DNA of 64,000 nucleotides from Octopus sinensis (Eukaryota): assembly GCF_006345805.1 (NCBI RefSeq), contig NC_042998.1:5084001-5148000 (forward strand). Direction: 5' to 3'. The stretch's first letter is position 1. Every line of letters begins with the position of its first letter. This document shows positions 1-58,417 of this stretch, piece after piece. Under the pieces are notes generated by a model. That model was not told the origin of the DNA, made no database searches, and saw nothing but the letters and a program-made list of their open reading frames with translations. Both the position numbers and the translations under genes were made by a program.

Positions 1-115
1 TGGTCATCTATTCTTTCGGGGTTGATAAAATACGTACCAGTTAACTACTGAGCTTGATGTGATAACCTTCCCCATCTCATTTAAAATCCATGGCTTTATG
101 CCAATATTTCAAGCT
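1..115 (+). mobile_element. Diverged partial copy of SINE family C (Nin/Deu-like core plus tail)
   Basis: ttctttcggggttgataaaatacgtaccagtt resembles the core cctttcggggtcgataaattaagtacca of the copies at 2348 and 29510. Confidence 0.6.
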
Positions 116-301
116 TATATATCAGTGAGGAGCCCTTTACTCGATTGCCAAGTATGGCAGGAGTAACCATTAATTTTTCATCATATTAAATCCTGCCGCC
201 ATGGGAATCAGAAAATTTCTTATATCAGGAAAGTCATAGTTGGAACGCTTTTAATCATGTACACAGTGGATCAGGGACCAAACATCAATGGCAGCATATT
301 T

Positions 302-365
302 AAGGCGGTGCTTCAGCATGGCCGCAGTCAAATGAGTGAAACAAATAAAAGGATAGAAGAATAAA
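302..365 (+). mobile_element. 3' end fragment of SINE family A
   Basis: aaggcggtgcttcagcatggccgcagtcaaatgagtgaaacaaataaaag matches the 3' end of the full copies at 467 and 55101. Confidence 0.75.
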
Positions 366-466
366 AAATGATATATTACAGATAAACTCAGCCTCCACAT
401 GGGAAATATTCAGGCATAAAAACAAGAACAGGAGAGAAAGTGAAAAAAAAAGGCATGATTAAAAAA

Positions 467-628
467 GGCGCTGGAGTGGCTGTGTGGTAAGTAGCTTGCT
501 AACCAACCACATGGTTTCGGGTTCAGTCCCACTGCGTGGCCTCTTCGGAAAATGTCTTCTATAGCCCCGGGCCGACCAATGACTTGTGAGTGGATTTGGT
601 AGAGGGAAACTGAAAGAAGCCCGTCGTA

Positions 629-684
<56 letters not shown>

Positions 685-901
685 TGTGTGTGTGTTTGTG
701 TCTGTGTTTGTCCCCCTAGTATTGATTGACAACCGATGCTGGTGTGTTTATGTCCCCGTTACTTAGCGGTTCGGCAAAAGAGACCGATAGAATAAGTACT
801 GGGCTTACAAAAGAATAATTCCCCGGGTCGAGTTGGCGGTGCTCCAGCATGGCCGCAGTCAACTGACTGAAACAAGTAAAAGAGTAAAGAGAGAGAGAGT
901 A
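467..901 (+). mobile_element. tRNA-derived SINE family A, near full length, with internal (TA)n(TG)n
   Basis: Head has A-box-like tggctgtgtggtaa and B-box-like gggttcagtccc, an internal microsatellite at ~626-700 and an A-rich (gtaaaaga) tail. At least five other near-full-length copies occur in the window. Confidence 0.9.
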
Positions 902-1000
902 TTAAGGAGATGTAAATATGCACATGACCATAAAAGCTTGGAATAAATGTCAATGGAGACGGATTTAGCAAGTCATTAGCGGTCTATATACCGAAACCGT

Positions 1001-1380
1001 GGAGTCGCAATGGCCCAGCGGTTAGGGCAGCGGACTCGCGGTCATAGGATTGTGGCTTCGATTCCCAGACCGGGCGTTGTGAGTGTTTATTGAGCGAAAA
1101 CACCTAAAGCTCCACGAGGCTCCGGCAGGGGATGGTGGTGATCCCTGCTGTACTCTTTCACCACAACTTTCTCTCAATCTTACTTCCTGTTTCTGTTGTA
1201 CCTGTATTTCAAAGGGCCGGCCTTGTCACTCTCTGTGTCACGCTGAATATCCCCGAGAACTACGTTAAGGGTACACGTGTCTGTGGAGTGCTCAGCCATT
1301 TACACGTTAATTTCAAGAGCAGGCTGTTCCGTTGATTCGGATCAACCGGAACCCTCGTCGTCATAACCGACGGAGTGCTA
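1001..1380 (+). mobile_element. tRNA-derived SINE family B (head/core B, tail T1)
   Basis: tRNA-like head (tggcccagcggttagggcagcggac...gcttcgattccc). The core is shared with 5661-5892 and 28700-29005. Flanking direct repeat taccgaaac at 989-997 and 1388-1396. Confidence 0.88.
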
Positions 1381-2139
1381 TCTAATGTACCGAAACAATT
1401 CAAACTTCGGAAACTAGTTGAAAAATTTAAATCAATGCAAACAAACAAATAAATAAAATGAAGATTATGCAGCGAGCATTGGGAGAGAATTGACCACTTT
1501 GTTTCGCGTTAACTTGTCCTTACCTATCTCAAAGTATACGCAAAGTAGATAAGTTATATTGTTTGGTCAATGCGAAGCAAAAACATTCTGTCGGATGCAG
1601 CGACCAGTAAACACTGGGCTGTGACTGCGCAAACAAAATGGAATATCAGACTAAACCATCGATACATTAAAAACTGAATATGAAAGAATTCTAATATATC
1701 TCTATAGAAATTTTGTCTGGAAAAACATTGCTCTTTAGGAGACTGAGATGTTTCTCACAAATGTATGAAGTATATGGAGCGGATAAATTTTAAAATTTGT
1801 TCTCATTTTATTTCCGCAAATATAGATAGTTCACCATAAAAAAGAACACACGTAAAACTGCAGGCAGCTTACATCTATACATTCAACACAATATAGTATT
1901 CTTAGGCACAGCATTATAACCTAGAATGTTTTGAAATTTAACTGAAAACACGACGGAAGATATTACACAAAATAACAACAGTGGAAGAAATTAAATTATA
2001 TGAAGATATATTTTATAAAGAAAAAAGCAATGTGATTTTAACTTATTTAAAACTGTGAATAACAACAACGACGACAGCGATGATGACGATGATTACGATG
2101 GCGACCACGGCAACAATAACAACAACAATATTAATAATA

Positions 2140-2290
2140 AGTTTTCATATTATAGACACAGGACCTGAAATTTTGTGTGGAGGAGCAACAAGATTATATT
2201 GACCCTAGTACTCGAGCGATATTGATTTCATCGTCCCCGAACGGATGAAAGATAAAGTCGAATTCTGTGAAATTTGAACGTAAAGACGTA
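2140..2290 (-). mobile_element. Diverged SINE family C copy
   Basis: cccgaacggatgaaagataaagtcga...aatttgaacg core plus a gacacaggacctgaaattttg tail. Confidence 0.7.
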
Positions 2291-2347
2291 ATAATAATGT
2301 TACCAACTCATTAACTTGCGGCATGACGAAAATGAATTTTTAAATAT

Positions 2348-2582
2348 ATTTCTTTACTACCCACAAGGGGCTAAACATAGAGGGGACAATCAAGGACAGT
2401 CAAACGGATTAAGTCGATTATATCGACCCCAGTGCGTAATTGGTACTTAATTTATCGACCCCGAAAGGATGAAAGGCAAAGTCGACCTCGGCGGAATTTG
2501 AACTCGCGACGTAACAGCAGACGAAATACGGCTACGCATTTCGCCCGGCGTGCTAACGTTTCTGCCAGCTCACCTCCTTCAT
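2348..2582 (-). mobile_element. SINE family C (tRNA head, Nin/Deu-like core, tail C1), full length with 20-bp TSD
   Basis: Minus strand reads gagctggcagaaacgttagc...gagttcaaattccgccgaggtcgactttgcctttcatcctttcggggtcgataaa. TSD gaaaatgaatttttaaatat at 2328-2347 and 2583-2602. Confidence 0.92.
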
Positions 2583-2681
2583 GAAAATGAATTTTTAAAT
2601 ATCCCATAAACAGGCGAGCGTGTGTAGATGAAATGGCATAAATAAAAAAAATATATGGAGAACGCACTCAAACGTGAGTGA

Positions 2682-3299
2682 ATTGGCCTGAGGGGTCACA
2701 TAAGAGCCTTCTGCCCTCCCCCAGGGAAAGAAATGGATTCCGAACCACACAGAGAGAAGCAGAAACCAGAGGAGAAGGAGACAGTAGAAGAGGAAGAGAA
2801 TACACAGAAATGGAAGGAAGCTGGAAATAAGAGGAAGAGAAGAATACGAAGAAAAGAAAATAACATGGAACACCAATCCACCCCAAAACCACCCACACCC
2901 TCTGAGTCCCACCCTATTCCTGCAGACAGTGAACCCACCCGCTCCCCCCCCCCAACAAGAAAACAAAAGAAAAATAATAATACACACACACAAGAGATTG
3001 AATTCGATATCAGGCCGTACATTTGTACTATGACTGAACAGAAAGAAGTTAAAAGTCTAATGGAAGAGTATAAATGGTATGAAGTTGGTGAGACTAGGTA
3101 TGCTGTGATTGAAAAGAAGAACATAGATGAGTTTATGGTGAGGTGTGAAAGGGAGAATTGGGAGGTGAAGGATATAAGAATGAGCGATGAATTCGTGGAA
3201 AATATGGATGAGTATTTCGGAGTAAGAATGGATATGGAATTTATTCGTATTGGCAAAGAACATTCAAGTGACGATGAAAAACAAAGGACAGGTAAGTGA
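2682..3299 (+). CDS. Truncated ORF1/gag-like protein: C-terminal half of a CCHC zinc knuckle, charged/basic linker, C-terminal domain
   Basis: In frame upstream of the ATG at 2733 the sequence reads IGLRGHIRAFCPPPGKEM, matching CFLCGIRGHMKARRCP in the 5972 ORF. Confidence 0.7.
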   Translation: MGLRGHIRAFCPPPGKEMDSEPHREKQKPEEKETVEEEENTQKWKEAGNKRKRRIRRKENNMEHQSTPKPPTPSESHPIPADSEPTRSPPPTRKQKKNNNTHTQEIEFDIRPYICTMTEQKEVKSLMEEYKWYEVGETRYAVIEKKNIDEFMVRCERENWEVKDIRMSDEFVENMDEYFGVRMDMEFIRIGKEHSSDDEKQRTGK

Positions 3300-3451
3300 T
3301 GCTAACGGATGGGGCCGTTGGTATCGCTTTCATACTATCATTTTCTTTCACTTAACAATTCATTTTTCATAAATTTTAATTATAATGTTCTATGTCCCCA
3401 TGTCTTTTGGTGTCCCCCTCTGTGTCGCCCCTAGTGGGTAATAAAGAATCA
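2682..3451 (+). mobile_element. 5'-truncated ORF1-only (HAL1-like) retroposon with 14-bp TSD
   Basis: TSD tcaaacgtgagtga at 2668-2681 and 3452-3465. The reading frame is open from 2682 to the stop at 3299, followed by a ~150-nt 3' UTR ending in aataaagaatc. No ORF2 is present. Confidence 0.8.
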
Positions 3452-3469
3452 TCAAACGTGAGTGAGGAT

Positions 3470-4450
3470 CCTTCATTTGGGCTTCGTTAAAGTACCTCAC
3501 AAATGTGAATATATTTAGCACAGTGAACAAGATCATTTCCTCTACTTATCATGAGGTTATACAACTGGTGATTCCCTAGAAGCTGTAAATTCTGCTGTGG
3601 TGCGTTTTCTCTATTACCTTATTAGGATGGTTCTAATGGGTTTCGAGACACCTACTGCAGCTTAATGTTGCATGTTTCACAGAAAGGCATTCTTAACTGT
3701 AACACTAATCTTTACTACAACACCAATTATTTTCTATTTCTACTCAGCATGTAACATTCCAGCTTGATTGCTTATTCTTCTTCAGGAGAAATGAGAAGTT
3801 GCAGGTTCCTAGAAACTTGTGCCGACCACATGAAATTTTATGTCACATCAGCGCACATCCACTGCTCGTCCTTTGCTGTGAAGGTTACTTTCATATCAAA
3901 CGATATCTTACATCGTCTGTTCCTTTGAGAGACTTTGAAAATCCACCCCACCAGGACTTAGCGAAACGCTAGAATGGCACATTCCTCCTTACTTGCTCTA
4001 AGGTAAATACTTCATTCCTTTGAGACCAGCTGCTATCATGATGTATGGTTTTGCCACTGCTCCCCGATCTACTTTTTTTCCCAAAACAAAAACAAAAGAA
4101 TATTGCTCTTCTCAGACTATCCTATACTAAGACTATTGCTTGTAATGTCGCCCAAGTTTTTCATAGAGTCTCAGACCAAGCCAAGCGACAAGCAAATTAA
4201 CAGGTGAGACATTCCAGGACTTTAGCCAGCAGCTTCGAATTGCTTCTCCGCATCTCCAAGTTTTGGCGCATTAATCTTTTGAGTCTGTAATGACTCAGGA
4301 ACGTGTGAGCTATTGAGACTTACTTAATATCCGATATAATTACAGTAACGTCATCCACCCATAACAACGCGGGTCTTCCGTATCTAAGTTACAACTGGTG
4401 ACACGTCAAACCCTTCAATTACCAAGGTACTGCCTGCAGAGTCACTGCAT
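3470..4450 (-). pseudogene. Highly degraded non-LTR reverse transcriptase remnant
   Basis: Minus strand at ~4330-4375 reads RPALLWVDDVTVIISD, an RT catalytic DD-type motif. The rest is broken by stops, so the extent is uncertain. Confidence 0.35.
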
Positions 4451-4539
4451 ACTGAAGAGTTGAGTCTGGGTCTACGGAAATCACATGTAACTGGTCAATA
4501 TGTTCTTTCATTCACTAAATTACTAGACACGTTGTTCGA

Positions 4540-4918
4540 AGTCTTGATATTAGATTATACCCAACTGTTATATCCTTACCTATATTTTCGTATATTTTTT
4601 GTTGTCATTCTTGTTGTTTGTATTAATAATCGCGTAACATTTTCTCCGTTTTCTCGTTTTTTTTTTTGTCGTCGTGTTGTCGCCCATATTCGCTCGCTTT
4701 CGTCCAAAAATTTAATGTCTTCAGCTTAGATTTTTGGGACCTACCAATTTTGAACAGTCTAAGTGTAACAAGCCGAAACTGTAACGATGATTGGAAGCTT
4801 GACAGAGGAATAGACAACCACGGATGTTCCATCCTAGTTTTCCTGTCCGTCTTTGTATCGTCCATCTGTCCGTATGTTTTTATTGTCGCGGTTACGTTCT
4901 TGTTCCGTTTTTTGAATT
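4540..4918 (+). mobile_element. Penelope-type non-coding repeat fragment
   Basis: Homologous to both arms of the element at 61170-62010 (taacaagccgaaac...gtatcgtccatctgtccgtatgtttt...cgttcttgttcc). Ends at a (TA)n tract. Confidence 0.6.
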
Positions 4919-4974
4919 TATATATATATATATATATTGTTGTTCTTGTTGTTATTTAGGTGGCTTTTTCACAA

Positions 4975-5086
4975 TTTACAACCAAAAGGCACAAGTATAG
5001 ATGTCACTAAGATGATTAATAATGCTACTGAGCACTATTACCTCCAGTCACTTTAGTGAAGTCTATACCTGTGCCTTTTGTATAAA
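4975..5086. repeat. Short inverted repeat / MITE-like hairpin
   Basis: aaaaggcacaagtatagatgtcactaag pairs with tttagtgaagtctatacctgtgcctttt. Confidence 0.75.
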
Positions 5087-5092
5087 TATATA

Positions 5093-5501
5093 TTATATAT
5101 AACTTGGTTTAAGAAGAGACAAAAAGTTAGATACTCATTCTATAGTTATGATTTACATCAGTATAAAATATAAATATAAAATTAAAGCAAGACAAGGAAC
5201 ATATTTATATATCGTTGAGAAAAGAAATGATAATTATATGAGGCAAAGGTATACGTGAAAAGGATAAATATATAAAGTTTGATATATTCTTCGGAACTCC
5301 TCTAAGTTGTTAAACTCATGATTAGGATTTCTTACTACCGCCGATGTATCTGACAACTTTTCGTCCTTAAATTTAACTCATGTAATTCTTATGTTCCTTG
5401 TCTTGCTGTAATTTTATGTTATATGTATTTATTATGTTGATGTAGATCATAACTATAGAATGGTTATCTAAATTTTTGTCTCTTAAAACCAAATTGTATA
5501 A
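5093..5501. repeat. Fold-back element with ~110-bp imperfect inverted arms
   Basis: ttggtttaagaagagacaaaaagttagatactcattctatagttatgatttacatca...gcaagacaaggaacat is mirrored by atgttccttgtcttgc...tgatgtagatcataactatagaatggttatctaaatttttgtctcttaaaaccaa. Confidence 0.8.
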
Positions 5502-5660
5502 TGTCTAATGTCTCGGGTTCGACCTGAGCACTTCTAAGCAATTGTTTAAAAAGAAACTTTTTCGAAAAAAATTCATGTGTGTGTGCGTGTGTGTGTAAAT
5601 TGTATAAATTAATATTTACACTTTCTGGACGTGCTCATCAATTATAGTATAGTTCCCAAT

Positions 5661-5892
5661 ATCACCGTGATCACCGTGGCCGACCAGGCTATCAGATGTT
5701 GCTACACATCGCTGGTCACAATGCACTTCACATTGTTTTAGCTTTCAAATGACGCCACCCCGCTGGCTAAGCGAGCAGGCCAACAGAAGAAAGAGTGAGA
5801 GAAAGTTGTGGCGAAAGAGTACGGCAGGGATCACCACCACCCTCTGCCGGAGCCTCGTGGAACTTTAGGTGTTTTCGCTCAATAAACACACA
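5661..5892 (-). mobile_element. 5'-truncated SINE family B (core B, tail T2)
   Basis: Core matches 1083-1180, but the tail is unrelated and ends in a (cacggtgat)2-like repeat. Confidence 0.85.
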
Positions 5893-7060
5893 TCAACTGC
5901 AACATTCACTCAACTCAGAGGTAGACACTGAGATAATAGAAATATCCAGAACAACAAAGGTGAACCAATAAGTGTATGGGCTGGATGTTCTGGTCCATAT
6001 AAGTCTGCCAGAACTCCATACGATTGCGGAGGAACTGATACTGCCGAACGAAGAAAGGCTGAAGATAGTGGTGGAAGGAAGACTATCTGTATGTTGTTTT
6101 CTTTGCGGAATAAGGGGACACATGAAAGCAAGGAGGTGTCCGCAGCAACAAGAAAAGGAAGTAGAACAAGAGAAGCAGGAAGAAAAAAAAGGAACAAAGT
6201 GCAGAGGTACAAACGCAAGTAAACGAAAATATAGAAAATGTAGGAGAAAGGTACAGAGTTGGAAAAAGAATGAAGAAAAGAGAAGGAAATGGTAATTCAC
6301 CACCCAAAAGTCCACAGAAAAAGTGAAAAGAAAATATAGAGGAGAATCAATGCGAAAGACCAGAGATACCAAAAAAAGAAAATTACGGAGGAGGAAGAGG
6401 GAAGTGCGGAGAAAGGAAAGGAAGAGAGACAGCGGCAACAAGGAGATATGAGATATACAGAGAGGGATGTGAGACCAATACCAGGAACATCAGGAGAGAA
6501 TAACGATGGAAAATTGGAATTGGTAACAAAAGGAAAACACAGTCGAACGATGGTAAACTATAAAAAGAGTGTAAAGATCGAGAGAAAGATTACAAAAGTG
6601 AAAAATGCAATTAGAATCAAGTTATGAGAGAGGGAAAATACGGAGAAAGACAGGGCGGTCGTGGTCGAGAGGGACAGATATGAAAGGTTAAAAGAGCTAT
6701 TTGGGGAACAAATTGAAATACCGCCGTTACAGGTTCGATACGACGAGATGCCAGCAGTGGTGGCATTTGAAGATATAATACAATATGCACCATGAAAGTA
6801 AGTGAAACACTTAAAATAATGACTTTTAAAACAAAAAAAAAAACAATGTAAAATAAGAATAATGAACTGTAATGTTAATATGTGAGACAAAAACAGTAAA
6901 ATGGAACCACTTGCTTTGTGGGGTAGGAAAGCCATTTCATTCTCATTTTCATTACACCCATAATTCATTCGATATGTGTTTTATGTACCCCAATGTATTG
7001 CTTTCTCTGTTTTGTTTTCGTCCTTTCTATATTGAGGCCTTGTGCCTAATAAAAGAAATC
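5893..7060 (+). mobile_element. Degraded ORF1-only (HAL1/Tx1-ORF1-like) retroposon
   Basis: LKIVVEGRLSVCCFLCGIRGHMKARRC zinc knuckle, then frameshifted K/E/R-rich coding sequence to a stop at ~6775, then a 3' UTR ending gaggccttgtgcctaataaaagaaatc. No ORF2. Confidence 0.7.
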
Positions 7061-9054
7061 AGAAGTCGCAGGAGTCGTGGGAGTCGTTGAGATCGTTGAG
7101 AATTTGTATTTATTGGAGTAATTTGAAGTACGTTGCCTAAAGACAGTTAAGTTTATCTCCGTTTTGTGAAATCTGTATATAAATGTTAAAGAAAAATAAT
7201 AAATAAAAATGTAAAAAGAGTGTATATTATGAAATAGGAAACTAGCATAAACGATTTACACAAAGAGGTGGCTCCACCTAAAATAGTGATTTATCTTGAG
7301 TAGAAAAGATGATTTTAAGTGGTGAGCTAAATGAAATTGTACGTAGAGGGCAAATGCTTATGATATATTTGTCTAAATGCATCATATCTGACATATTTCG
7401 TTGTATTCTGAAAGAAACTCTATATAGAAATAAATGTTAGCAGAAATTTGAACTAATATGACAGTTACTTTTTTATGCCTTCAAGAAAAAAATAATTTAC
7501 TCTGGATATAAAAAAAACGAAAGCATGAATTATTTTGTAAAATTACTTTACAGAAATGTGAAATCCATGCGTATATTGTATATGAAGTGATAGTGAGAAA
7601 ATGTCAGACAGTATCGTAGGATTATGGGACATGATTCAGACGAAATACGACACATTTAAGAATATTACGTCTGAGGCGTATTAGACGTAATATCAATCAT
7701 TTAAACTTCTTCAGTTAATGTTGAATTATTGATACAAGGATTTTTAAAAATTTACTAGAAACGACTATGTCATGGCTGAAAATAATAATTAATTGATGGC
7801 TCCTATTATTTTCTTTTAGAAAGGACTTGTGAGATCTAAATATACGCTTCTTATATTTTATTATAACCTCCTCAGTGAAGCCAGAGCTTCACTACATTTA
7901 CCAATTAAAGAATCCCTGTCTAAATGGAGAATAAATTGCATTTATTGTCGTTCAGAAAAATAATTATTTAGTATATTAAAAAATCTCAAAGATGCTGATG
8001 TTACTTGACGCAGGGAAAATATAAAAAGAGCTAAATGTAAATGATCGTATTTTTTCCCACTATATTTGTTTATACGTCACTTTTTATGTCGTTAAAAAAA
8101 TAGAAACATGTCTGGAGTCCAGAGTAATTTACTGAAATGTCTCACCTAATTAAAATTATATTATTCATTGATTATAATTGTTTTATACTCGCCACATAAT
8201 TATTTCTATTTAGATTTTCTAGTTCTTTTCTGAAATAAATATGTCAATACTAACTTTAGTTTTATGCTTCATGCGAATGACATTCTCTAGTTAGTTATTC
8301 ATTTAAATGTGTTGTTTTGAATATATAATCGCTGGATAATTAGTAGCATTAAGAAAGCAGGATTCATACCTTTTAGCAAGCAATCTGGGTGGATATAAGA
8401 TAAGCGGCTTGCTAATCTTGGTTGCTTCCTCAGTATCCTTGTAGATAAGGAGAATAGATTACTGAATATTTAGCGAAGATGTTACCTTCATACAGAAAAG
8501 ATATCAAGGCCAACTGCGGAATATTGATATTGCAGACAAAACTATTTAGTAATAGTTAGAAATCTATCAATATAACATCTGCAAAGCATCATGTGTTGTT
8601 TTCCTGTCTTTTCTTATATGTTTTCACTGTTACTGATGGCTTTTAAGAACCTGGTTTAGTAGGAAAAGCTAAAAATGCATACCTAAAAAGTCAAACGGAA
8701 GTTGACTCAATAGATGCATATTTCCGAAAACAGTTTGAAAACTGAAGCAAACGTTATTGGTGTTGTATTTACATATATGCGTATCCTTTATCATTGTTCC
8801 ACATTCTTTACTTTTTAACTATTAATGATGAATGTCAAAGTTTCATCCAGCACACAATGAAGTATAACTGGTGAATCAGTTAGATATCTTCATGCAAATA
8901 TTTATTGTAATGTAACGAAATTAGTGACGTCGTCTTTTAGAGAACGTTGCGTCATATCGTAATAGAACCAACATAATTCAACAGGGAGTACCGTACGAAA
9001 CCTGCATTACATTGGCTGCTTTCAATACCTAGGAGTCATTTTAGTTAATACTTA

Positions 9055-9195
9055 GGAGTATTTCGTACGTCTCTACGTTCTGAGTTCAAATTCCGCTGAG
9101 GTCGACTTTGCCTTACATCCAAATATTGAAGTCGATGCAATAGATTTATCCCTCCCATAAAATGTCAGGTCTTGCGCCTCTAATAGAAATAAGTA
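9055..9195 (+). mobile_element. Diverged, internally deleted SINE family C copy
   Basis: tacgttctgagttcaaattccgctgaggtcgactttgccttacatcc...aggtcttgcgcctctaatagaaa. Confidence 0.8.
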
Positions 9196-9217
9196 TTACA
9201 TCTACTTCTAGGTTGTT

Positions 9218-9320
9218 GACTTGACTTTATATTCGCTTGTAAATGATTATGCCATACCTCCAAGGAATTAATTGTTCGTGGTAAATCATAGCATATGCGG
9301 TCATATACGTTCCACATACT
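9218..9320 (-). repeat. Ectopic ~100-bp copy of MULE transposase sequence
   Basis: Near-identical to 10230-10330. Confidence 0.85.
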
Positions 9321-9608
9321 ACATGCAAGTCAACTCTCTCACCATCAAGATGAAGTAATTAAATCCCTAGTAGAATTTGTATCTTTCTGACCTTCACTAA
9401 GTTGATAACCTTATTCTCATAGCACAGCAAATTGTGAGCGGGAAGACTTGTTAATTTCTTTTGCGAATACTGTAACCAAGCTCCTCTTGTCCGTCATAGT
9501 AAAGTAGGTTGACTACCTGACCATTAATGAGAATTCAAAGTATCTACTACTTTGCTATAAGGACGGTGCACAACACAAGGAGCTCGTGTGTTCTTGGCAT
9601 TAAGAAAC

Positions 9609-10654
9609 GGTATCCGGACAACTGTCCGACTGATGGTCGAGTGCCTGACGGTCAAATGCCCGTCGGACAATTGCCCAACTGTCAACTGCAAGATGGAGAA
9701 ATGCGCGACAAACACAACTGCCAGAATGACAACTGCCCGATAATTTTAAAGTAAATTGAAACTAAAATATAAAAATATTAAAATTAACTAAACCGAAATT
9801 ATAATAAACGCCTTTGTCAAAATGTAACATTTAAAAAGATAATACATTTTTTCAACGGTAAATTATAAGTACAAAACATAGAATTTGTTTTATTTGGGGA
9901 AACCGAGGTAGAACTTTAACAACAAAAAAAAAGAAAATGCATTGAATTTCATAATATTATTTACAGATAATTTATCAATATCACGAACAATAATGTAATT
10001 CGGAAAATAGTAAAAATAACTAAAACTTTAAGTCGAGCTATTTCCCTCAAAAAGTCCATCACTTCTCGATTTTCATAATCCTCCACAATATTTGCAATTC
10101 TTTTCATTAAATCTTGATATTTTTTTTCCTTTTGGGGTGAAGGCTGATGTCCTGTCAACGTTTGGTTGGTCGTGTCGTTAAGTGCTTGTTCCGTCTTCAA
10201 TGCCTGGAGAAAACGCCAGATATTTGGATGACTTGACGTTATATTCGCTTGTAAATGGTTAGGCCATACCTCCAAGGGATTAATTGTTCGTGGTAAATCA
10301 TAGCATATGCGATCATATACGTTCCACATACAAATAGGAAAGCATTGGTTGCCTCTCTTACGCCTCGTATTCTACAGATATAAGCATCTTCAAAGTAATC
10401 AATGATTGGATCTGCTTCATGGCACAAATTTTCTTATTATTGCTCAAAGATTCGCCCAAATGACAGATAAAGTGAGATGAAAGACAGATACAGATGAAGT
10501 GAAAGTGTCTGTCAGGCAGATATCTATCGGTAAGTTGTCCCTATCGCACAGATCTGTGTCAGACAGTTGTCCGTCGCGCTTATGTCCGCCGGGCAGTTGT
10601 CCATCGGGGAAATGTCCGTCGGACAAATACTCGTCGAGCAGTTGACCTAGAACC
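9609..10654 (-). mobile_element. Mutator-like (MULE) DNA transposon, internally deleted, 9-bp TSD
   Basis: TSD ttaagaaac at 9600-9608 and 10655-10663. GG...CC termini and inverted subterminal arrays of (g)gacaa(c/t)tg(t/c)cc motifs. Confidence 0.9.
9961..10427 (-). pseudogene. MULE transposase C-terminal fragment, frameshifted
   Basis: IIDYFEDAYI, WNVYDR..DLPRTINPLEVW and SSHPNIWRFLQALKTEQ correspond to MULE YF..TW / RTNNxxEGW / HPNIWxF motifs. Confidence 0.85.
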
Positions 10655-18482: not shown

Positions 18483-18585
18483 AAATGCACATATACATGC
18501 ATTACATACACATACTTCTGTGTGTGCAAATAGTGTAAGTACATACTTTCCTGTATAATAATTATAATAATTATAATAATAATAA

Positions 18586-18745
18586 TCCTTTCTACTCTAG
18601 GCACAAGGCCTTGAAATTTTGGGGGAAGGAACTAGTCGACTACAACGATTCCAGTACACAACTGGTACTTAATCTATCGACCCACAAAGGATGAAAGGCA
18701 AAGTCGACCTCGGCGGAATTTGAACTTAGAACGTAAAGACGGGCA
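18586..18745 (-). mobile_element. SINE family C with tail C2
   Basis: Core aggatgaaaggcaaagtcgacctcggcggaatttgaact with tail ctttctactctaggcacaaggcc, next to (TAA)n. Confidence 0.88.
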
Positions 18746-19994
18746 AACACCATCGCTAATTTAAATAATAGAGCAAAAATATGAATGAAGAAATAAGTGA
18801 GATAACGATAAGACAAAGAAAAGAGAGAGAGAAGAACTGAAATAATCGAACAATATAAAAAACGAAAATAAAACAATATATTAATAGCCAAAAGCATGAG
18901 ATACGGAAGAATATTTTACGTAAAGCCCCAAACTATTTATGCTATAGACAGGAGTCTTTTAGAAATATCACATAAGTTGTAACTGAAGAAATCTCAACAT
19001 GATTTGTAAGAGAATTTGTCATAATATTAATAAAATAGACATATATATCTTTTCATGAATTATTAAAGATGTCTTCCTATGAAATCGCTAATATTCTGAA
19101 GTACGAGATTGGACTCGATTTTGACAGTAAATCATTCATCGCAAAAGCAACATTCTGACCTCTAGTAATTTATTGACAAAACTAACCGAAATTCTAATAA
19201 TTTTTATTGATCAATGAATCTTTAAACTTCTATTCTGGTTGAAATAAAGCTTATTGACTATAGGTGCGCATGCCATTTATTTCATATATTTATTTTTATA
19301 CTTCTTTCAGTTTATGCGTTCATATACTGCACGCATAATATACACACGTATATAGGCTCAAACAGAAAAAAAGATACGTACGCAATGACATACATACATC
19401 GAGATGCAGATATCATTTGTGTGCTTACGACTGTTTATTTATTTGTGTACATACGCATATAAATACATAACCTTTTCTAAAATCGTTTTTAAAAATCTCT
19501 TGCATATTTGCTTATTCATATATTTCGTTGATTGAATGAAAAATTTATAAGGAAACATAAAATTTTATACCAGAAAACTCTCGTGAATTATGGATTAGTG
19601 CATACTTAAGTTTTCTTGACCGGATATACACACGATCATTGTAACATTAACTTCTATTTATCAAATAATAATAAATATATGCCTAATGTAAGACATCTGT
19701 AAGTTATTAAATAATATGTATGAACGTTAGATATGTCAGCCGTATACTTATATGTGTGCTATGTATCTCAGTGCGTACGGAGGTGCATCTAGGCAAATTT
19801 ATGTTTGTCTGCGAGCTCATATATTTTTATATTTTACCTTTGAGATAACATCTATAGTTGAATAACAAAATATGTTAAACGCGAATAAATTATATATATA
19901 TTGAATAAAATAGTCCAAGTCCTTATCATAATATAGCTTTCATTAAATAACACATATATATAATATATATATATATAGGTACACAATTAGCTAC

Positions 19995-21358: not shown

Positions 21359-21500
21359 AGGTGTAGGCGTGGTTATGTGGTAAGAAGCTTGCTTCCCAAT
21401 CACGTGATTCCGGGTTCAATCTTCTACAATTGCGCCGGGCCGACCAAAATGTAGTGAATGGATTGACTAAATGGAAACTGAAAGAAACTGTCATATAAAT
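21359..21500 (+). mobile_element. 5' half of a diverged SINE family A
   Basis: ggcgtggttatgtggtaagaagcttgcttcccaatcacgtgattccgggttcaatc...ggaaactgaaagaaac. Confidence 0.8.
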
Positions 21501-21811
21501 AAATATATATATATATATATTTCAAAATGTGACCTCGTGTGTACCGTTGGCGATTTTTTTTCCTCTGTCTTCCCTTCTCGGGATCTTTCCTTCTCCTCTG
21601 TTTCCGACGAAGAGCTCCGCTCGAAACGTTAAACCCCCCTTCTTCCCTTCTTTCCTGGGCGTCCAATAATACTATATTGTTCCACGTCCTCGCGTTGTTG
21701 TTTTTTTGTGTCTTCTTGTTTGGATTAACTATATATATATTTATATATATATATATAATATATATATATATATTATATATATATATACACACGCACACAC
21801 ATACATACAAC

Positions 21812-21851
<40 letters not shown>

Positions 21852-22017
21852 GCACACACATACATACAAACATTTATATATATATATATATTGAGAGGGA
21901 GGGAGAAAGAGAAAGAGGTAGATAGATAGAGATAGATAGATACATATATTTATTATTTATTATTTAATTGAACGCGACGCATCCATTTTCAGGTATAAAT
22001 ACATGTGTATGTGTGTG

Positions 22018-22114: not shown

Positions 22115-22606
22115 TGTGTGTGTTTGTGTGTATTATTTTCCTGCCGATATGCCTCTGATAAACTCTAAATAATTATGACGATGTTTGTTACATGGAACGA
22201 GATAAATGTAAATTTCCTTCAAATATAAGAAACTGAAACAGCTGTAAATGTTATTTTAACTACAATTAAACGATGACCATTTAAAACCAATGATCAACTT
22301 ATAATTTTTAATTGTTGCTCAAATTCTTTTCTTATCTGTATATACATGCATATATATAAAAAATAATATATATATATATATTTCAAAATGTGACCTCGTG
22401 TGTACCGTTGGCGATTTTTTTTCCTCTGTCTTCCCTTCTCGGGATCTTTCCTTCTCCTCTGTTTCCGACGAAGAGCTCCGCTCGAAACGTTAAACCCCCC
22501 TTCTTCCCTTCTTTCCTGGGCGTCCAATAATACTATATTTGTTCCACGTCCTCGCGTTGTTGTTTTTTTGTGTCTTCTTGTTTGGATTAACTATATATAT
22601 ATTATT

Positions 22607-22637
<31 letters not shown>

Positions 22638-22668
22638 TATATATACACACACGCACATACATACAAAC

Positions 22669-22713
<45 letters not shown>

Positions 22714-22901
22714 CACATACATACAAACATTATATATATATATATATATAATATATATATATATTGAGAGGGAGGGAGAAAGAGAAAGAGGTAGATAGAT
22801 AGAGATAGATAGATACATATATTTATTATTTATTATTTAATTGAACGCGACGCATCCATTTTCAGGTATAAATACATGTGTATGTGTGTGTATTTATATA
22901 T

Positions 22902-28699: not shown

Positions 28700-29005
28700 T
28701 ATACGCCCTTTTCAAGCCTAACCAGGCTCATGGGCCCGGTTTCCCGGTTTCTGTGGCGTATGTGTTCCCCCCAGCTGGACGGGACGCCAGTCCATCTCAG
28801 CGTTACTCAGGAAACAGAAAGAAAGAGTGAGAGAAAGTTGTGGCGAAAGAGTAAAACAGGGGTCGCCATCACCCGCGGCCGGAGCCTCGTGGAGCTTTTA
28901 GGTGTTTTCACTCAATGAACACGCACAACGCCCGGTCTGGGAATCGAAACCGCGATTATCTGACCGCGAGTCCGCTGCCCTAACCACTGGGCCATTGCGC
29001 CTCCC
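28700..29005 (-). mobile_element. SINE family B (head/core B, tail T3)
   Basis: Same head and core as 1001-1180; the tail contains gatggactggcgtcccgtccag...cagaaaccggg. Flanking repeat tatattattat. Confidence 0.9.
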
Positions 29006-29509
29006 CTATATTATTATGGTTTTTATGTTATTCTGCCTTCTATAGCTCATATCATTTTTTTTCTATATGTTTGTCCGAGATGTATCAGAACGCATATTGA
29101 TCCCTCCAATACCAGTATGTAATCCGATATTTTTTACTTGAAGGTCTGTTCAATGTGCTCTTCATTACTGATGATCCTTTTTATGCATTTTACTCTTAAG
29201 AAAAAATCGCAGACACTTTTAAATTCTATCACCAACAGGTAACCTTCAAATGTAAGGAATCATTTCCATTATTCATGCACGGATTATTCATTCGCCTGGA
29301 TGATTTCGCTCAAGTACTTTCTTATTTTAATACTATTTCTTATTCTTTTTTCTTTTGATATTCACTCTAGATGTTGGTTTTCTTCACCGCTAATCTCTGA
29401 CACCCTTTTGTGAGTTGAGTTTATAAAATTCATTTCGGGTCCAATTTGGCTACTTATCCTTCACATTATTAATTCCCGATTATATGGAATATCAAATACT
29501 CGGTTTATA

Positions 29510-29741
29510 TATTTCTTTACTACCCACAAGGGGCTAAACGCAGAGGGGACAAACAAGGACAGACAAATGGATTAAGTCGATTATATCGACCGCAGTGCGT
29601 AACTGGTACTTAATTTATTGACCCCGAAAGGATGAAATGCAAAGTCGACCTCGGCGGAATTTGAACTCGGAACGTAACGACAGACGAAATATGGCTACGC
29701 ATTTCACCCGGTGCGCTAATGTTTGTGCCTGCTCGCCGCCC
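29510..29741 (-). mobile_element. SINE family C, tail C1
   Basis: Highly similar to 2348-2582; flanking repeat aatactc(g/t)gtttata. Confidence 0.92.
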
Positions 29742-30009
29742 TGAATACTCTGTTTATAGTTTTCTTAGTTGCATATTTGAAACACATCTTTCTTACATTT
29801 GCTTGTGTTCCATTGGTACACAGAAGTCGTGAAGCTATTCTTTCGGTACACTTGCTTCTCCGGTTAACGCTTTCAGCTAACTAGCGTACTCCCAATTTCG
29901 TCCACTACCCACCTACATTTTCTTCCCACTTTTCTATCATTTAAGCGGTACCATTATTTAATCCCAACCATACCGCTTAGATTCTGCTGTTTTAATTAAC
30001 TAAATTTAA

Positions 30010-30330: not shown

Positions 30331-31859
30331 AGTATCTAATAATTAAGCCATTTTTCTTCATACTTAATCAAATTAAAATATAATTTCAAAAGTAATGTAA
30401 TTATATTGAAAATCTTGATATTTTACTTCACTCGTTGCCACGAATTCTGTATCGTATTTACCCACCTTTTCATAACATTTCGGCGTCGAGGGCCACTGAT
30501 GTATATTTTAATGTCTATAAACACTTTGTCATTCCCTTATCTCAGGCTCCAGTTGAATGGATATCAAACAGCTGTCGTCTGCGACAAGTTTCTTACCGGC
30601 GTCAAGCGTCATTATCGGCGTCTCCATCAATATCGCAATTACATCTCTGAACAGCTTACTCTTGAGTTTTATTGCTAGTAACTTTTCCGTACGCCGACCA
30701 CACCACTACACTCCTAATCATAGGGTTTTGGCACTACCGTTTATTTGCTTCTCTCTAATCAACATACCTCTGCCGTCAATTATCATCATCACTATTACCA
30801 TTTTTATTATTATTTCTAGCGTTTGCTTCTTGCTGTTTTTATTCCTTGTAGTACAAACAAAAACAATAATAATGGCTTCTGATATTTATTTATCAAATGA
30901 GAAAATAAAAGAAATCATTATTATTATTGTTATTGTTATTATTATTGGTGTTTTCATTATTGATGTCTCGTAATATCTCTAAATTCGCCTCAACTTATAT
31001 TTCAGATTTACTACTGACTAGTCTATTATTAAAACCTTTTCAGTGAGGCTTGTACCACTATGATTGCTTTTATTTTTGATGGTATTATTGTTATCCTTTC
31101 AACCATCCGTCCACTATTCCCAGAAGAACCGTGATTGTAGAGTTCTCATGCAGCTCATTCATAGGGTCACCAGATTTTCCGGTTGGTTTCCCACGCATGA
31201 CCAGCTGACACTCTAGTTCCATCCAACCGACTTATTCTTATTTTACTCTTAGGTCTCCTGCTAGTTGAAGAGGCTTGAATAATCTCTCTTACGATTTTTC
31301 CCAATGACATTGTAATCTTGTCCTCTTAAGGGAGATGTGACTTCTCAATGATCGACCTAATCTCGAAGCTACGCAACTTAGTCAAGAAGGTTGCTACCGC
31401 TGTTGTTACTGCTGGTAATATCGTTGTTGTTGTTCCTTATTTTCGTATTCATCGTCATCTTATCACGCTTTATAAACAACGCAGAAGACATGTTCGCAAC
31501 TCAGTACGAAAACACACAACTTACTAATTAGTCATATGAAGATCAACCCCGATATTTTCTATAACTCATATTCCATAAATTTTCATGCTGAATCTACAAT
31601 AGAATGAATTGTACGGAAACAGTTGGTGGCAGGTGTGTAGGTTATTTCCTCGCTAAAATCACAATCTTTTAGAGCCTTATTATATACTGGGGTAACGCTA
31701 TTAAGCATGTCCTTATCGGAGGAGAGGCTAGAAATTCTCTTTCTAATGATTTTAACTATTTTTTTTTACATTATAGGTGGATGGCAGGAATCTACATTAA
31801 TATAACTAGTTCTATCATTGGGCTTCCTTTAAGGCTTATAAATGTCCGTCATGTTTGTT

Positions 31860-32352
31860 ATTCGCTGCATGAAAGATTAGCAGCCCAATTGAATGAGTGT
31901 GTCCAGAAAGGCACAGTCCCCGCGTGGATGGTGACTAGGAGGACAACACTTACAATGAAAGATAGAAGGAAGGGAAATATTGTGAGAAACTACCGCCCGA
32001 TAGTATACCTAGACATAATCTAGAAGATACTCACTAGAATATGTGCGGCAAAGACATATACTTTCTTGGCACTTCGAATTGAAAGCGGAAAATCAAGACT
32101 GTATGGAATGCGAGAGGGTAATGTAAAAGAGAGACCAGTGGTGATGGGAGCGTTGGACTCAATCCCATTGAAACTTCAAGACTTCTTAAGGCATCTGGAA
32201 ATCCCATGCAAGATTGATGTCTTACAAAAAACAGACTTATTGGGCACAGCGATCATCTCAAGGAAAGTATTATCTGTGTGAGGTCTTTGTTGTGACTTGA
32301 CAGATGACTAAGGTCTCCGGTGCATTTTAACCTGCACTCAGTTTCGTAGAAT
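31860..32352 (+). mobile_element. Dong/R4-clade LINE, internally deleted (RT start fused to C-terminus and 3' UTR)
   Basis: LHERLAAQLNEC..VPAWMV..RTTL..KD..KGN..NYRPI, then PVVMGAL...LQKT.LLGTA.I.RKVL*, followed by (TAA)n. Confidence 0.85.
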
Positions 32353-37986: not shown

Positions 37987-38199
37987 ATACTCTTTACTCT
38001 TTACTCTTTTACTTGTTTCAGTCATTTGACTGCGGCCATACTGGAGCACCGCCTTTTAGTCGAGCAAATCGACCCCGGGACTTATTCTTTGTAAGCCTAG
38101 TACTTATTCTATCGGTCGCTTTTGCCGAACCGCTAAGTGACGGGGATATAAACACACCAGCATCGGTTGTCAAGCAATGCTAGGGGGACAAACACATAT

Positions 38200-38253
<54 letters not shown>

Positions 38254-38407
38254 GACAGGCTTCTTTCAGTTTCCGTCTACCAAATCCACTCACAAGGCAT
38301 TGGTCGGCCCGGGGCTATAGCAGAAGGCACTCGCCCAAGATGCCACGCAGTGGGACTGAACCCGGAACCATGTGGTTGGTTAGCAAGCTACTTACCACAC
38401 AGCCACA
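37987..38407 (-). mobile_element. SINE family A
   Basis: Reverse complement of 467-901 and 55101-55517. Confidence 0.92.
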
Positions 38408-39963: not shown

Positions 39964-41247
39964 TTGTAAGTGTTAATACTTTATAGTTTTAAATTAGCTT
40001 TAATCGTAGCAAGGTCTTATAATAATAGTTAATTACAAGTATACTTTTATTAGTTCATATTTAATAAATTTAATGTTTCTATTAGTTACTGGTAAGTTTG
40101 CATTAAAACTTGTAAGGATAATATATATTGATGAGTATGTAGTGTTTTTGCTATTAACTTTTCAATTAGGAAATAATATATTTCACTCATAATTATTATA
40201 TTATTCGTTAAATTAAATTCAATCGTGTTTTGTTTTGGAGAAAATTGAAATAAAGCTTTCACTTTTTATATTATAGTAGTAACTATGGAAGACTGATGGG
40301 ATTATTATTTGTATGGACTTAAAGATTGGTCGCTATTTAGTATATAATTTAGTTATTGTATGTTTACTGTTAATACCGATACTATTGTGCATAGGGTAAA
40401 TGTGTTTGAAAGTTGTGGTTTTTTGTATGTTTGTTCTCAAACAACACGTATTTCAGTGCTTGTTGACACCGCCGGATTGAATGGTAGTGTCCAGGTGTCG
40501 AAACCATAATGATATCCGTGGGGCAGCTGATGATGGATGTATGTTGGATTGTTGGTATGGCTATTTTTGTATCTGTGGAATCCTTTTGAGATATACGTAT
40601 ATATGTGTGTGCACGCGCGCGCGTGTGTGTGTGTGTGTGCTTGCGTGCGTGTGTGTGTATCCGTATATCTTGTTTTATAAATTTTAGAAAATGTTTTATA
40701 AAAGATGAAGCAATGTTCACTGTTTTGATATCGCTTCTACTATAGGCACATGGCCTGAATTAATGGATTAAAAATTGCATCTTGAAATAGCGAGCTAAAT
40801 ATTTCCTCAGGGTGGGAATTAGACACAAAAAGAATCACATCATAAACGATCAGGTGATCATCAACAGACACAACATGTCAATAATGTGAGCGCGTGTGCA
40901 TGTTAGTATTTTAAAAAAACCTGTATAATCATGGCTTTTGGTTTTATTTATTTGTGCGCCGTGTGTTAAATTTACAATATTTTATATCGAAATATAACCA
41001 TATATATCGAAGTGTAATAACCATTAAACTCCGTAATATATTTATTGGTGACCACTTTAACCAATAAAAACCAATACTATTAAGTGATACTGGATTGCTG
41101 AACATTTCATCGATATATAACATTAAGCCGGTGAAGCTTGGATACTGACATCCATTTTTAAGAGGTATGTGTATCCTCAAAATGAATAAATAAATATATA
41201 CGTATATATATATATAAATATGTGTGTGTGTGTGTCTATATATTTAT

Positions 41248-45489: not shown

Positions 45490-45521
<32 letters not shown>

Positions 45522-45556
45522 CATAATCATAATAGTGATGATGATGATGAAGATAA

Positions 45557-45770
45557 TTTTCATACTCTAGGCACAAGGCCCAAAATTTTAGGGGAAGGGG
45601 GACAGTCCATTAGATCGACCCCAGTATGCAAATGGTACTTAATTTATCGGCCCCGTAAGGATGAAAGGCAAAGTCGACTTCGGCAGAATTTTAACACAGA
45701 ACGTAAAGACAGACAAATTACCGCTAATCATTTCACCCGTTATGCTAACGTTTATCCCAGCTGACCACCT
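45557..45770 (-). mobile_element. SINE family C, tail C2, within (TAA)n/(TGA)n
   Basis: Tail tactctaggcacaaggcccaaaatttt plus the family C core and head. Confidence 0.88.
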
Positions 45771-45890
45771 TGATAATAATAATGATAATAATAATAATAA
45801 CAACAGCAACAACACAACAACAATAATAATAATAATAATATTGATAATAATGATAATAATGATGATGATGGTGATGATGATGATGATGAT

Positions 45891-47036: not shown

Positions 47037-47268
47037 TACTCTTTTACTCTTTTACTTGTTTCAGTCATTTGACTGCGGCCGTGCTGGGGCACCGCCTTTA
47101 GTCGAGCAAATTGACCCCGGGACTTATTCTTTGTAAGCCCAGTACATATTCTATCGGTCTCTTTTGCCGAACCGCTAAGTGACGGGAACGTAAACACACC
47201 AGCATCGGTTGTCAAGCAATGCTAGGGGGACAAACACAGACACACAAACTTATACACACACACACACT

Positions 47269-47300
<32 letters not shown>

Positions 47301-47465
47301 TACGACAGGCTTCTTTCAGTTTCCGTCTACCAAATCCACTCACAAGACATTGGTCGGCCCGGGGCTATAGCAGAAGACACTTGCACAAGATGCCACGCAG
47401 TGGGACTGAACCCGGAACCATGTGGTTGGTTAGCAAGCTACTTACCACACAGCCACTCCTGCGCC
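47037..47465 (-). mobile_element. SINE family A, full length
   Basis: Reverse complement of 55101-55517. Confidence 0.93.
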
Positions 47466-48346
47466 TACGTTTCTATATATTACATAGACACATGTGACAA
47501 GTACGATAACCACATGACATTTTTCAGAGACCGAGCGGAATGTGCTGAACAAATTCTACAAATAGAGGATATATATATTTGGTATTATTTTCAATATTCG
47601 ATATTCATATAGCAGCCACCCAACGAACATACTTCTAACGGAATAAGACGTGCATAACCATCCCGTGGTTAAAATTATTTATAGGCTATTTTTTTAATAA
47701 AAAATCTTACTGCACATTGGATTCTTCTTCAATGACACAATTTATAACTCAAATAAAACTTACCAGATTAAATTTGGTTTTACCCATATTTTGTTTAGCA
47801 TTTTAGAAAAGTATTGCTTGGTATCCCAATTGCTCCCGGTTAAAAGTATATTGTTTGAATTTTTTTATCGCTGAAACAGCTCTCTGGTGTAATCAATTAA
47901 CGCAAACATTGATATCAATCCTTATATTGCAAATGAATTGTGGTATATTGACACTATTTATGAAGAAGTTATGTTTGAGTCTGTGAATGTATGCAAACGT
48001 TTCTCATTTTGATTAGATTTATATTGTTTGCTTTGATCAGATATATAGTTTCAGGCACCGTGAATGACAAAACAAAATTGGTTATCTTATGTTTACTGCT
48101 ATCCATACAATCAACTTTTTACAGAGAGAGAATATTTCTGTGTTTATATATATATATAGTATATGTACTTAACAGCAGTATCAACAAACACTACGAAATA
48201 TTTATTCAGGAATCTCAAAAAAATATTTAATATGTACTTACCAATCATATATTTTCTCTCCCTAACATGCAGGCAATCAATGTGCTCAATGCAGAACTAT
48301 TCAAAATACATGCGAATATATATGTATAATTATGCATGTATGTATG

Positions 48347-58367: not shown

Positions 58368-58417
<50 letters not shown>

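What the first reader, a model, noticed from the sequence alone, without database searches (positions are those of the whole stretch)
2348..7060. SINE C tails match the 3' ends of the two ORF1-only elements
Seen: SINE tail C1 (tgtccttgattgtcccctctatgtttagccccttgtgggtagtaaagaaat; copies at 2348 and 29510) aligns with the last ~50 nt of the 2682-3451 element (tgtcttttggtgtccccctctgtgtcgcccctagtgggtaataaagaat). Tail C2 (aggccttgtgcctagagtagaaag; copies at 18586 and 45557) shares aggccttgtgccta with the end of the 5893-7060 element. Known: SINEs borrow 3' tails from partner LINEs, but L1/Tx1-type mobilisation is usually regarded as poly(A)-dependent. Inference: a three-tier system (autonomous Tx1-like LINE, ORF1-only element, SINE) that shares a stringently recognised 3' signal in two parallel lineages.
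Basis: partly seen in the sequence, partly recalled or inferred. Interest (0 to 1): 0.72.

Follow-up and report, generated by a model that had tools for sequence, protein, structure and literature searches.

The report
Octopus retroelements share a tail hairpin
In an octopus genome, short non-coding jumping elements and two truncated jumping elements that carry only an RNA-binding protein end in the same small RNA hairpin, which suggests they borrow the same copying enzyme, though that enzyme was not found here.

Summary
The shared tails are real. SINE tail C1 matches the end of element 2682-3451 (33/39 nt; none of 3000 shuffles as high). The match of C2 to element 5893-7060 is exact but only 14 nt (profile E=0.018). 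All eight aligned ends fold into one 4-bp hairpin with a 5-nt loop: 32/32 cells pair, and two pairs flip C-G to G-C between lineages. No end carries poly(A). Both elements encode only a CCHC-knuckle ORF1-like protein (RRM fold weakly supported in a relative), followed by a 152 or 265 nt UTR. The first has a 14-bp TSD and is a young, multicopy family in Octopus vulgaris. The tails look native to the elements, not SINE insertions. No ORF2 partner was found, so 'Tx1' rests on ORF1 architecture, which other clades share. ORF1-only elements (HAL1, HeT-A, Ag-Sponge) and stringent L1-clade tails (maize, Chlamydomonas) are published; an animal L1/Tx1 case was not found in my searches. Verdict: new variant of a known kind; the top tier is inferred.

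The parts
2682..3451 (+). Element 1: 5'-truncated ORF1-only retroelement, starting inside the zinc knuckle
   Evidence: 14-bp TSD; 205-codon open frame; 30 O. vulgaris hits at 72-99% identity
2682..3299 (+). Element 1 ORF: second half of CCHC knuckle, Lys/Glu/Pro-rich linker, C-terminal domain
   Evidence: profile match to the family P=86%, E=4.8e-6 over 31 columns
3300..3451 (+). Element 1 3' UTR, 152 nt; hairpin 3427-3439, AATAAA 3440-3445, no poly(A)
2668..2681 (+). Left TSD of element 1
3452..3465 (+). Right TSD of element 1
5893..7060 (+). Element 2: decayed, 5'-truncated ORF1-only element; no TSD found
   Evidence: matches both ends of O. bimaculoides A0A0L8H761; TSD search negative
5918..6795 (+). 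Element 2 ORF remnant, broken by stops and frameshifts; knuckle near 6092-6142, stop 6793-6795
6796..7060 (+). Element 2 3' UTR, 265 nt; hairpin 7035-7047, AATAAA 7048-7053, no poly(A)
2348..2580 (-). SINE C1 copy a, about full length; hairpin 2359-2371; 20-bp TSD 2328-2347 and 2583-2602
29510..29743 (-). SINE C1 copy b; hairpin 29522-29534; TSD 14/15 at 29495-29509 and 29744-29758
18586..18760 (-). SINE C2 copy a, 5'-truncated; hairpin 18599-18611; followed by (ATT)n
45557..45770 (-). SINE C2 copy b; hairpin 45569-45581; (ATT)n-type repeats on both sides
2141..2290 (-).
9047..9193 (+).
40735..40759 (-). Orphan C2-type tail with no SINE core upstream
   Evidence: profile E=2e-4

Best explanation
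SINE C (a tRNA-like head and common core, with two tail variants) and two related ORF1-only non-autonomous retroelements carry variants of one 3' recognition signal: a pyrimidine-rich stretch, a 4-bp stem with a CU(U/A)GU loop, and a short purine-rich end without poly(A). Shown: the homology, the covarying stem, the ORF1-only anatomy, and TSDs for element 1 and both C1 copies. Inferred: an autonomous APE-type LINE elsewhere in the genome ends in the same hairpin; its ORF2 binds the hairpin and copies these RNAs in trans by target-primed reverse transcription. The ORF1-only elements arose by loss of ORF2 and supply their own RNA chaperone. The SINE gained the tail by template switching, at least twice or once followed by stem change. 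The partner is most likely Tx1/L1-like (about even odds), but the clade is untested.
For: Tail match beyond chance. RNAalifold predicts the same hairpin unaided; 32/32 cells pair; 2 of 4 pairs change on both sides; 0/500 shuffles reach the covariation score; slid controls pair 25-56%. SINE-element similarity falls to background 30-100 nt upstream of the stem (p=0.46, 0.35), while element 1 and element 2 still resemble each other there (45/74, p=0.0045) and over the last 125 nt (p<=0.0005). Element 1 differs from C1 tails (39/51) more than two C1 copies differ (47/50; Fisher p=0.023), although its ORF is up to 99% identical to genomic relatives, so decay is an unlikely cause. Both elements have AATAAA right after the stem; the SINEs have AGTAAA or other variants. 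TSDs of 14-20 bp. A full-length relative (P0020, 404 aa) resembles ZCCHC3 two-RBD/CCHC and DUF4283 clusters (feature score 0.90; TM 0.37-0.48).
Against: No RT or endonuclease among 134 stop-free frames of 62 aa or more (low-complexity frames left out). No ORF1-ORF2 fusion among longer homologues: 1 hit of 7924 candidates, knuckle only. The hairpin is weak: folding z-scores -1.5 to +1.3, none significant, and it is the minimum-energy structure in only 5 of 8 tails, not in element 1. The both-sided changes are one lineage difference counted in three related sequences. The descriptor and alignment windows were chosen after seeing the match. A whole-UTR local test of element 1 vs 2 was not significant (p=0.26). 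Element 2 has no TSD. The fold search gave no hit at E<=0.001; best were RRM proteins at E about 0.01. Only one copy of each element was seen at DNA level.
Confidence: 0.7

Rival explanations
1. Cross-clade chimera: the ORF1 is Tx1/L1-like but the tail was captured from a stringent LINE of another clade (Rex1/Babar, L2/CR1, RTE, Nimb or R4/Dong), which mobilises both these elements and the SINE. Three tiers would hold, but nothing would follow for Tx1.
For: No poly(A) at any of 9 ends; longest A run 3-5. C2 copies end in or sit in (ATT)n repeats in 3 of 4 cases, against 0 of 2 C1 copies. RRM+CCHC ORF1 is not clade-specific, and ORF1 shuffling is proposed (PMC4120745, passages). Mollusc SINE partners reported so far are CR1, CR1-Zenon, L2 and Nimb (PMC11481361, passages). 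Dong-R4, CR1, RTE and L1-Tx1 are all recently active in O. vulgaris (PMC13282606, Table 1). A hairpin directly followed by AATAAA at Rex1/Babar ends is recalled, not tested.
Against: A single knuckle after two RBD-like domains fits the ZCCHC3/DUF4283-like type; the Jockey-group type I ORF1s tabulated in PMC4120745 mostly have three knuckles. RRM/CCHC ORF1 in non-mammalian animals is said to agree with Tx1 RT phylogeny (PMC5203782, passage).
Confidence: 0.3
2. The tails are short, 5'-truncated SINE C insertions (or template-switch captures of SINE tails) at the element ends; similarity says nothing about the LINE.
For: A stand-alone C2 tail without SINE core exists at 40735-40759. Element 2 has no TSD, and its C2 match is only 14-18 nt.
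Against: Element 1's TSD encloses ORF and tail together. Two related elements would each need an insertion at the homologous point. Both have AATAAA where the SINEs do not. Element 1's tail is more diverged from C1 than C1 copies are from each other. An elements-only profile finds both C1 copies (E=2e-4, 3e-4).
Confidence: 0.1
3. The elements are 3' remnants of an autonomous element with reversed gene order (ORF2 upstream of the ORF1-like gene); both are 5'-truncated, so the upstream part is unseen.
For: Both copies start inside the ORF. Nothing here shows their 5' ends.
Against: I know no such LINE layout (own knowledge). ORF1-only derivatives are known from three clades (PMC5786205, passage). 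Relative P0020 begins like an ordinary ORF1 (motif recalled).
Confidence: 0.04
4. The C2-element 2 match is chance, and only the C1-element 1 pair is real.
For: BLASTN E=0.76; upstream flank not similar; one of four C2 copies gives p=0.50.
Against: 13/13 identity in the hairpin at the same distance from the end; 0 of 3000 shuffles; profile E=0.018.
Confidence: 0.12

Closest known systems
Stringent SINE/LINE pairs (UnaSINE/UnaL2, ZfL2; bivalve V/CORE/Meta SINEs with CR1-Zenon, L2, Nimb)
   Same: SINE shares 35-61 nt of 3' end with a coding retroelement at 72-95% identity (PMC11481361, passage); stem-loop with compensatory changes (PMC4824008, PMC4176376, passages).
   Different: Here the coding sharer has no RT, so it is a fellow dependant; the ORF1 looks L1/Tx1-like; the stem is only 4 bp.
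HAL1, HeT-A, Ag-Sponge (ORF1-present non-autonomous LINEs from L1, Jockey and CR1)
   Same: One ORF1-like protein, then a 3' UTR, no ORF2 (PMC5786205, PMC5753468, passages).
   Different: Type I knuckle ORF1 in a mollusc; no poly(A); tail shared with a SINE. None of the passages I read lists a Tx1-derived case.
Maize ZmSINE2/3 with LINE1-1_ZM; Chlamydomonas SINEX-3_CR with L1-1_CR
   Same: L1-clade elements with a conserved, about 45-80 nt tail shared with SINEs and, in monocots, a compensatory hairpin (PMC3472496, first third; PMC3747384, passages and Table 1).
   Different: Those are plants and algae, have a known ORF2 partner and end in poly(A) or poly(T); this is an animal, partner unseen.
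SINEU with Tx1-Mar (crocodilians)
   Same: SINE thought to be mobilised by a Tx1 element (PMC4494074, passages).
   Different: SINEU ends in poly(A) and no LINE sharing the SINEU-1 3' end was found; the link rests on target preference.
MetaSINE superfamily (e.g. cuttlefish SepiaSINE2)
   Same: tRNA-like head, common core, exchangeable tails (PMC4824008, passages). The core's likeness to the Meta domain is recalled.
   Different: Membership untested; no octopus family with these tails in the passages read.

Membership tests
ORF1-only non-autonomous LINE (HAL1/HeT-A/Ag-Sponge type) | Encodes an ORF1-type protein | tested here: met
   CCHC knuckle in family members (Pfam zf-CCHC up to E=1e-5); two-RBD+CCHC likeness; in element 2 itself only E=0.095
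ORF1-only non-autonomous LINE (HAL1/HeT-A/Ag-Sponge type) | No ORF2 between ORF1 and the 3' end | tested here: met
   152 and 265 nt from stop to end; TSD closes element 1
ORF1-only non-autonomous LINE (HAL1/HeT-A/Ag-Sponge type) | Amplified as a family by retrotransposition | tested here: met
   30 O. vulgaris proteins at 72-99% on several chromosome-size contigs, 11 of 30 ending at the same RTGK stop; TSD. UTRs of those copies not seen
ORF1-only non-autonomous LINE (HAL1/HeT-A/Ag-Sponge type) | Full-length copy lacks ORF2 altogether and derives from an autonomous family | not testable with these tools
   Both copies are 5'-truncated; no octopus genome to search
Tx1 clade | RT groups with Tx1 | not testable with these tools
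   No RT linked to the family
Tx1 clade | RRM + CCHC ORF1 | tested here: inconclusive
   Compatible but not clade-specific (PMC4120745)
Relaxed L1-type element | 3' poly(A) tract | tested here: not met
   Longest A run 3-5 nt in the 25 nt after the stem in 9 of 9 ends
Stringent SINE/LINE pair | Shared 3'-terminal sequence | tested here: met
   (strong for C1, modest for C2)
Stringent SINE/LINE pair | Conserved stem-loop with compensatory change | tested here: met
   4 bp only, few independent events, not stable beyond shuffles
Stringent SINE/LINE pair | An RT-coding partner ends in the same tail | not testable with these tools
   None in the window
Stringent SINE/LINE pair | Tail needed for retrotransposition | not testable with these tools
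   needs a cell assay
tRNA-derived SINE | Pol III head, short length, TSD, dispersed copies | tested here: inconclusive
   About 230 nt, TSDs and 7 copies with the core; B-box-like motif visible; ARAGORN finds no tRNA, Rfam none in 1-10000
MetaSINE | 66-bp Meta domain | not tested
   Recalled likeness only; the paper's alignments are figures and not held

The most novel reading that the evidence does not exclude
An octopus Tx1/L1-superfamily LINE recognises its RNA by a minimal 4-bp hairpin rather than by poly(A) and supports two tiers of dependants, ORF1-only derivatives and a tRNA SINE. Two lineages with flipped stem pairs may each be read by their own ORF2, one preferring (ATT)n sites. This would be an animal example of stringent recognition in the L1 superfamily, supporting stringency as the ancestral state.
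Probability: 0.35. Interest if true: 0.68.

Novelty: new variant of a known kind. Interest (0 to 1): 0.46.

Why it matters
Whether poly(A)-only recognition by mammalian L1 is derived from a stricter ancestor is an open question; published support comes from maize and a green alga (PMC3472496). A Tx1-type animal system with a natural pair of compensatory hairpin variants, in a family young enough that intact partners probably exist, would allow a direct swap test. If the RT is from another clade, the result is still a cross-clade ORF1-only chimera, but of narrower interest. Practically, it names a partner tail for an octopus SINE and shows that some O. vulgaris gene models are retroelement ORF1 pieces.

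Tried and rejected
The repeat finder was swamped by microsatellites. Pfam's Ephrin match to element 1 (E=7e-4, below cut-off) was rejected as chance. P0047 joins the element 1 C-terminal unit to an endonuclease-like stretch; rejected as evidence of a partner, because 19 of 30 O. vulgaris models leave the family sequence for unrelated ends, a GT donor-like site lies at the ORF's end, and Pfam found nothing in it. The longer-homologue searches found no ORF1-ORF2 fusion. The descriptor scan found 8 sites against 1.1 expected, 7 of them known tails, but it was written from those tails and is circular; the eighth (15495) is taken as chance. The C-terminal domain has no usable Atlas hit. The PDB sequence search hit only generic zinc knuckles. 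The structure model is moderate (pLDDT 63, pTM 0.40). The DNA interrupted by element 1 has no Pfam match. 'TX1' in PMC4176376 is a mutant label, not the clade. Names and sources of proteins P0002-P0028 stayed unknown. Bao and Jurka 2010 (HAL1) was not held. Repbase, Dfam and octopus assemblies could not be searched; viral and metagenome contigs stayed unchecked; the bacterial genome collection was not scanned as it cannot hold the partner.
Full report
Setting. The window is AT-rich, microsatellite-rich animal DNA. The element 1 ORF matches 30 Octopus vulgaris predicted proteins at 72-99% identity (30 of 74 candidates), and the element 2 ORF matches O. bimaculoides A0A0L8H761 (1 of 165 candidates). 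The host is therefore O. vulgaris or a close relative (inference).

Observation. The quoted strings are present. SINE C has seven copies with the core: C1 at 2348 and 29510, C2 at 18586, 45557, 2141 and 9047, and a tail-less copy at 50213. C1 vs element 1: 33/39 nt, E=7e-6; 0 of 3000 shuffles reach the score; a profile of the two C1 tails finds element 1 at E=3e-6. C2 vs element 2: 14/14 in one copy and 13/14 in another; E=0.76 by BLASTN alone; shuffle p=0.0003, 0.002, 0.005 and 0.50 for the four copies; profile E=0.018. So the first match is firm and the second modest.

The elements. Element 1 (2682-3451) has an exact 14-bp TSD. It opens in the second half of a zinc knuckle, reads 205 codons to a stop at 3299 and ends 152 nt later. 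Element 2 (5893-7060) is broken by stops and frameshifts. It matches residues 1-67 (70%) and 190-283 (44%) of the 285-aa O. bimaculoides protein, stops at 6795 and ends 265 nt later. No TSD was found, and its 5' end abuts another SINE head to head. The two ORFs are distantly related (BLASTP E=3e-4; profile E=4.8e-6). A wider search gave 28 relatives, many with Pfam zf-CCHC matches. The longest, 404 aa, resembles ZCCHC3 two-RBD/CCHC clusters (0.90) and, by structure, DUF4283 and RRM proteins at TM below 0.5. My model is moderate and its best PDB matches are RRMs at E about 0.01. This is a type I (RRM+CCHC) ORF1 layout. It agrees with Tx1 in non-mammalian animals (PMC5203782, passages) but also occurs in I, Jockey, R1, Tad1, plant L1, L2 and some CR1 (PMC4120745, passages). 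That ZCCHC3 derives from a Tx1-like ORF1 is recalled; search did not show it.

The tail. Eight ends align without internal gaps. RNAalifold predicts one hairpin, 4 bp with a 5-nt loop. All 32 cells pair, two pairs flip between C-G and G-C, 0 of 500 shuffles reach the covariation score, and slid controls pair 25-56%. The flips are one lineage difference, and single-sequence folding is no better than shuffles (z -1.5 to +1.3; hairpin in the minimum-energy fold of 5 of 8). In the 13-nt hairpin, element 1 goes with C1 (12/13 against 7/13) and element 2 with C2 (13/13 against 8/13). Outside it the pairing blurs: pairwise, element 2's last 50 nt are closer to C1 (36/52) than to C2 (27/50); in the multiple alignment its flanks are level (14/32 and 13/34); the 27 nt before the stem match C1 for element 1 (p=0.012) but not C2 for element 2 (p=0.18, 0.31). 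No end has poly(A) (9 of 9). Both elements have AATAAA straight after the stem and the SINEs do not, as expected if only the elements are Pol II transcripts (inference).

Native tail or inserted SINE? The TSD encloses ORF and tail. Similarity to the SINE drops to background upstream (p=0.46, 0.35), while the two elements remain alike there (p=0.0045, window chosen after inspection); a whole-UTR local test was negative (p=0.26). Element 1's tail is further from C1 (39/51) than C1 copies are from each other (47/50; p=0.023), though its family is young. Against this, a lone C2 tail at 40735-40759 shows that tail-only insertions occur. On balance the tails are native.

Partner. No RT or endonuclease was detected in 134 stop-free frames, no further tail ends a long element in the window, and no ORF1-ORF2 fusion appeared. 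The autonomous tier and its clade are unseen. C1 copies have 15-20 bp TSDs in ordinary AT-rich DNA; 3 of 4 C2 copies adjoin (ATT)n on the 3' side and two on both sides, which hints at different end repeats or targets and possibly different partners.

Mechanism. Most likely, ORF2 of an unseen LINE binds the hairpin and copies SINE and ORF1-only RNAs in trans, as shown for zebrafish L2 elements (PMC4176376, passages). Homology, hairpin, anatomy and TSDs are shown; binding, trans-mobilisation and clade are inferred. Confidence 0.7 for the shared signal; about even odds for Tx1/L1 as partner.

Prior art. SINE-LINE tail sharing is standard. ORF1-present non-autonomous LINEs are known from Jockey, L1 and CR1 (PMC5786205, passage; PMC5753468, passages). 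Of 58 pairs surveyed in 2012 only three SINEs had L1 tails, in maize and Chlamydomonas (PMC3472496, first third; PMC3747384, passages and Table 1, which lists no animal L1 or Tx1 pair). Crocodilian SINEU is tied to Tx1 by target choice, not by tail (PMC4494074, passages). Bivalve SINE partners are CR1, CR1-Zenon, L2 and Nimb (PMC11481361, PMC4824008, PMC4758252, passages). The 2026 O. vulgaris annotation counts 80 L1-Tx1 families, 13 recently active, and has no occurrence of 'partner' or 'tail' (PMC13282606: first third, term search, supplement search). PMC11203168 (passages) added nothing. Searches found no report of this pairing or of a tail-sharing animal Tx1/SINE pair. Repbase, Dfam, subscription papers, and supplements of the other papers, which I did not read, may hold one.

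Verdict. A real, partly new configuration built from known parts: new variant of a known kind, interest 0.46. The bold reading, stringent recognition in an animal Tx1/L1 lineage with two dependent tiers, has probability about 0.35 and can be settled by one genome search.

Noticed in passing
window 2970-3299 and proteins P0029-P0040: Genomic relatives of element 1 carry one to three tandem copies of a roughly 90-100 aa C-terminal unit; element 1 has one. The domain has no usable Atlas hit.
   Followed up: partly
window 3285-3299: The ORF ends at a splice-donor-like site; 19 of 30 O. vulgaris gene models run from this unit into unrelated sequence, one named as a TP53RK isoform. Likely annotation artefacts, or exonisation.
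   Followed up: partly
window 5657-5892, minus: A 5'-truncated copy of a second SINE abuts the 5' end of element 2 head to head; it shares about 116 nt with copies at 1076-1191 and 28813-28929 but has a different 3' part. Deletion, inversion or chimeric insertion is unresolved.
   Followed up: partly
window 40735-40759, minus: Orphan C2-type tail preceded by sequence with no other match in the window; a tail-only SINE insertion or a third element type.
   Followed up: partly
window 50213-50381, minus: SINE C copy with head and core but neither tail.
   Followed up: no
window 2110-2318, 18556-18791, 45500-45799: C2 copies adjoin (ATT)n repeats, two of them on both sides; C1 copies and the elements do not.
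   Followed up: partly
window 466-900, 38088-38406, 47130-47466, 55100-55314, 58369-58583: A third abundant SINE with an internal (TA)n/(TG)n microsatellite, 85-92% alike between copies; probably one of the described octopus SINEs (recalled).
   Followed up: no
window 2583-2681 and 3466-4500: The DNA interrupted by element 1 has long, stop-poor frames on both strands but no Pfam match; possibly a decayed coding sequence.
   Followed up: partly
window 31673-32023, plus: Frame ends in a stretch that looks like the start of a non-LTR reverse transcriptase domain (recalled); no Pfam match at E<=0.01 and no hairpin tail nearby.
   Followed up: no
window 21424-21925 and 22297-22798: A local duplication of about 500 nt, 861 nt apart, seen as near-identical frames.
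   Followed up: no
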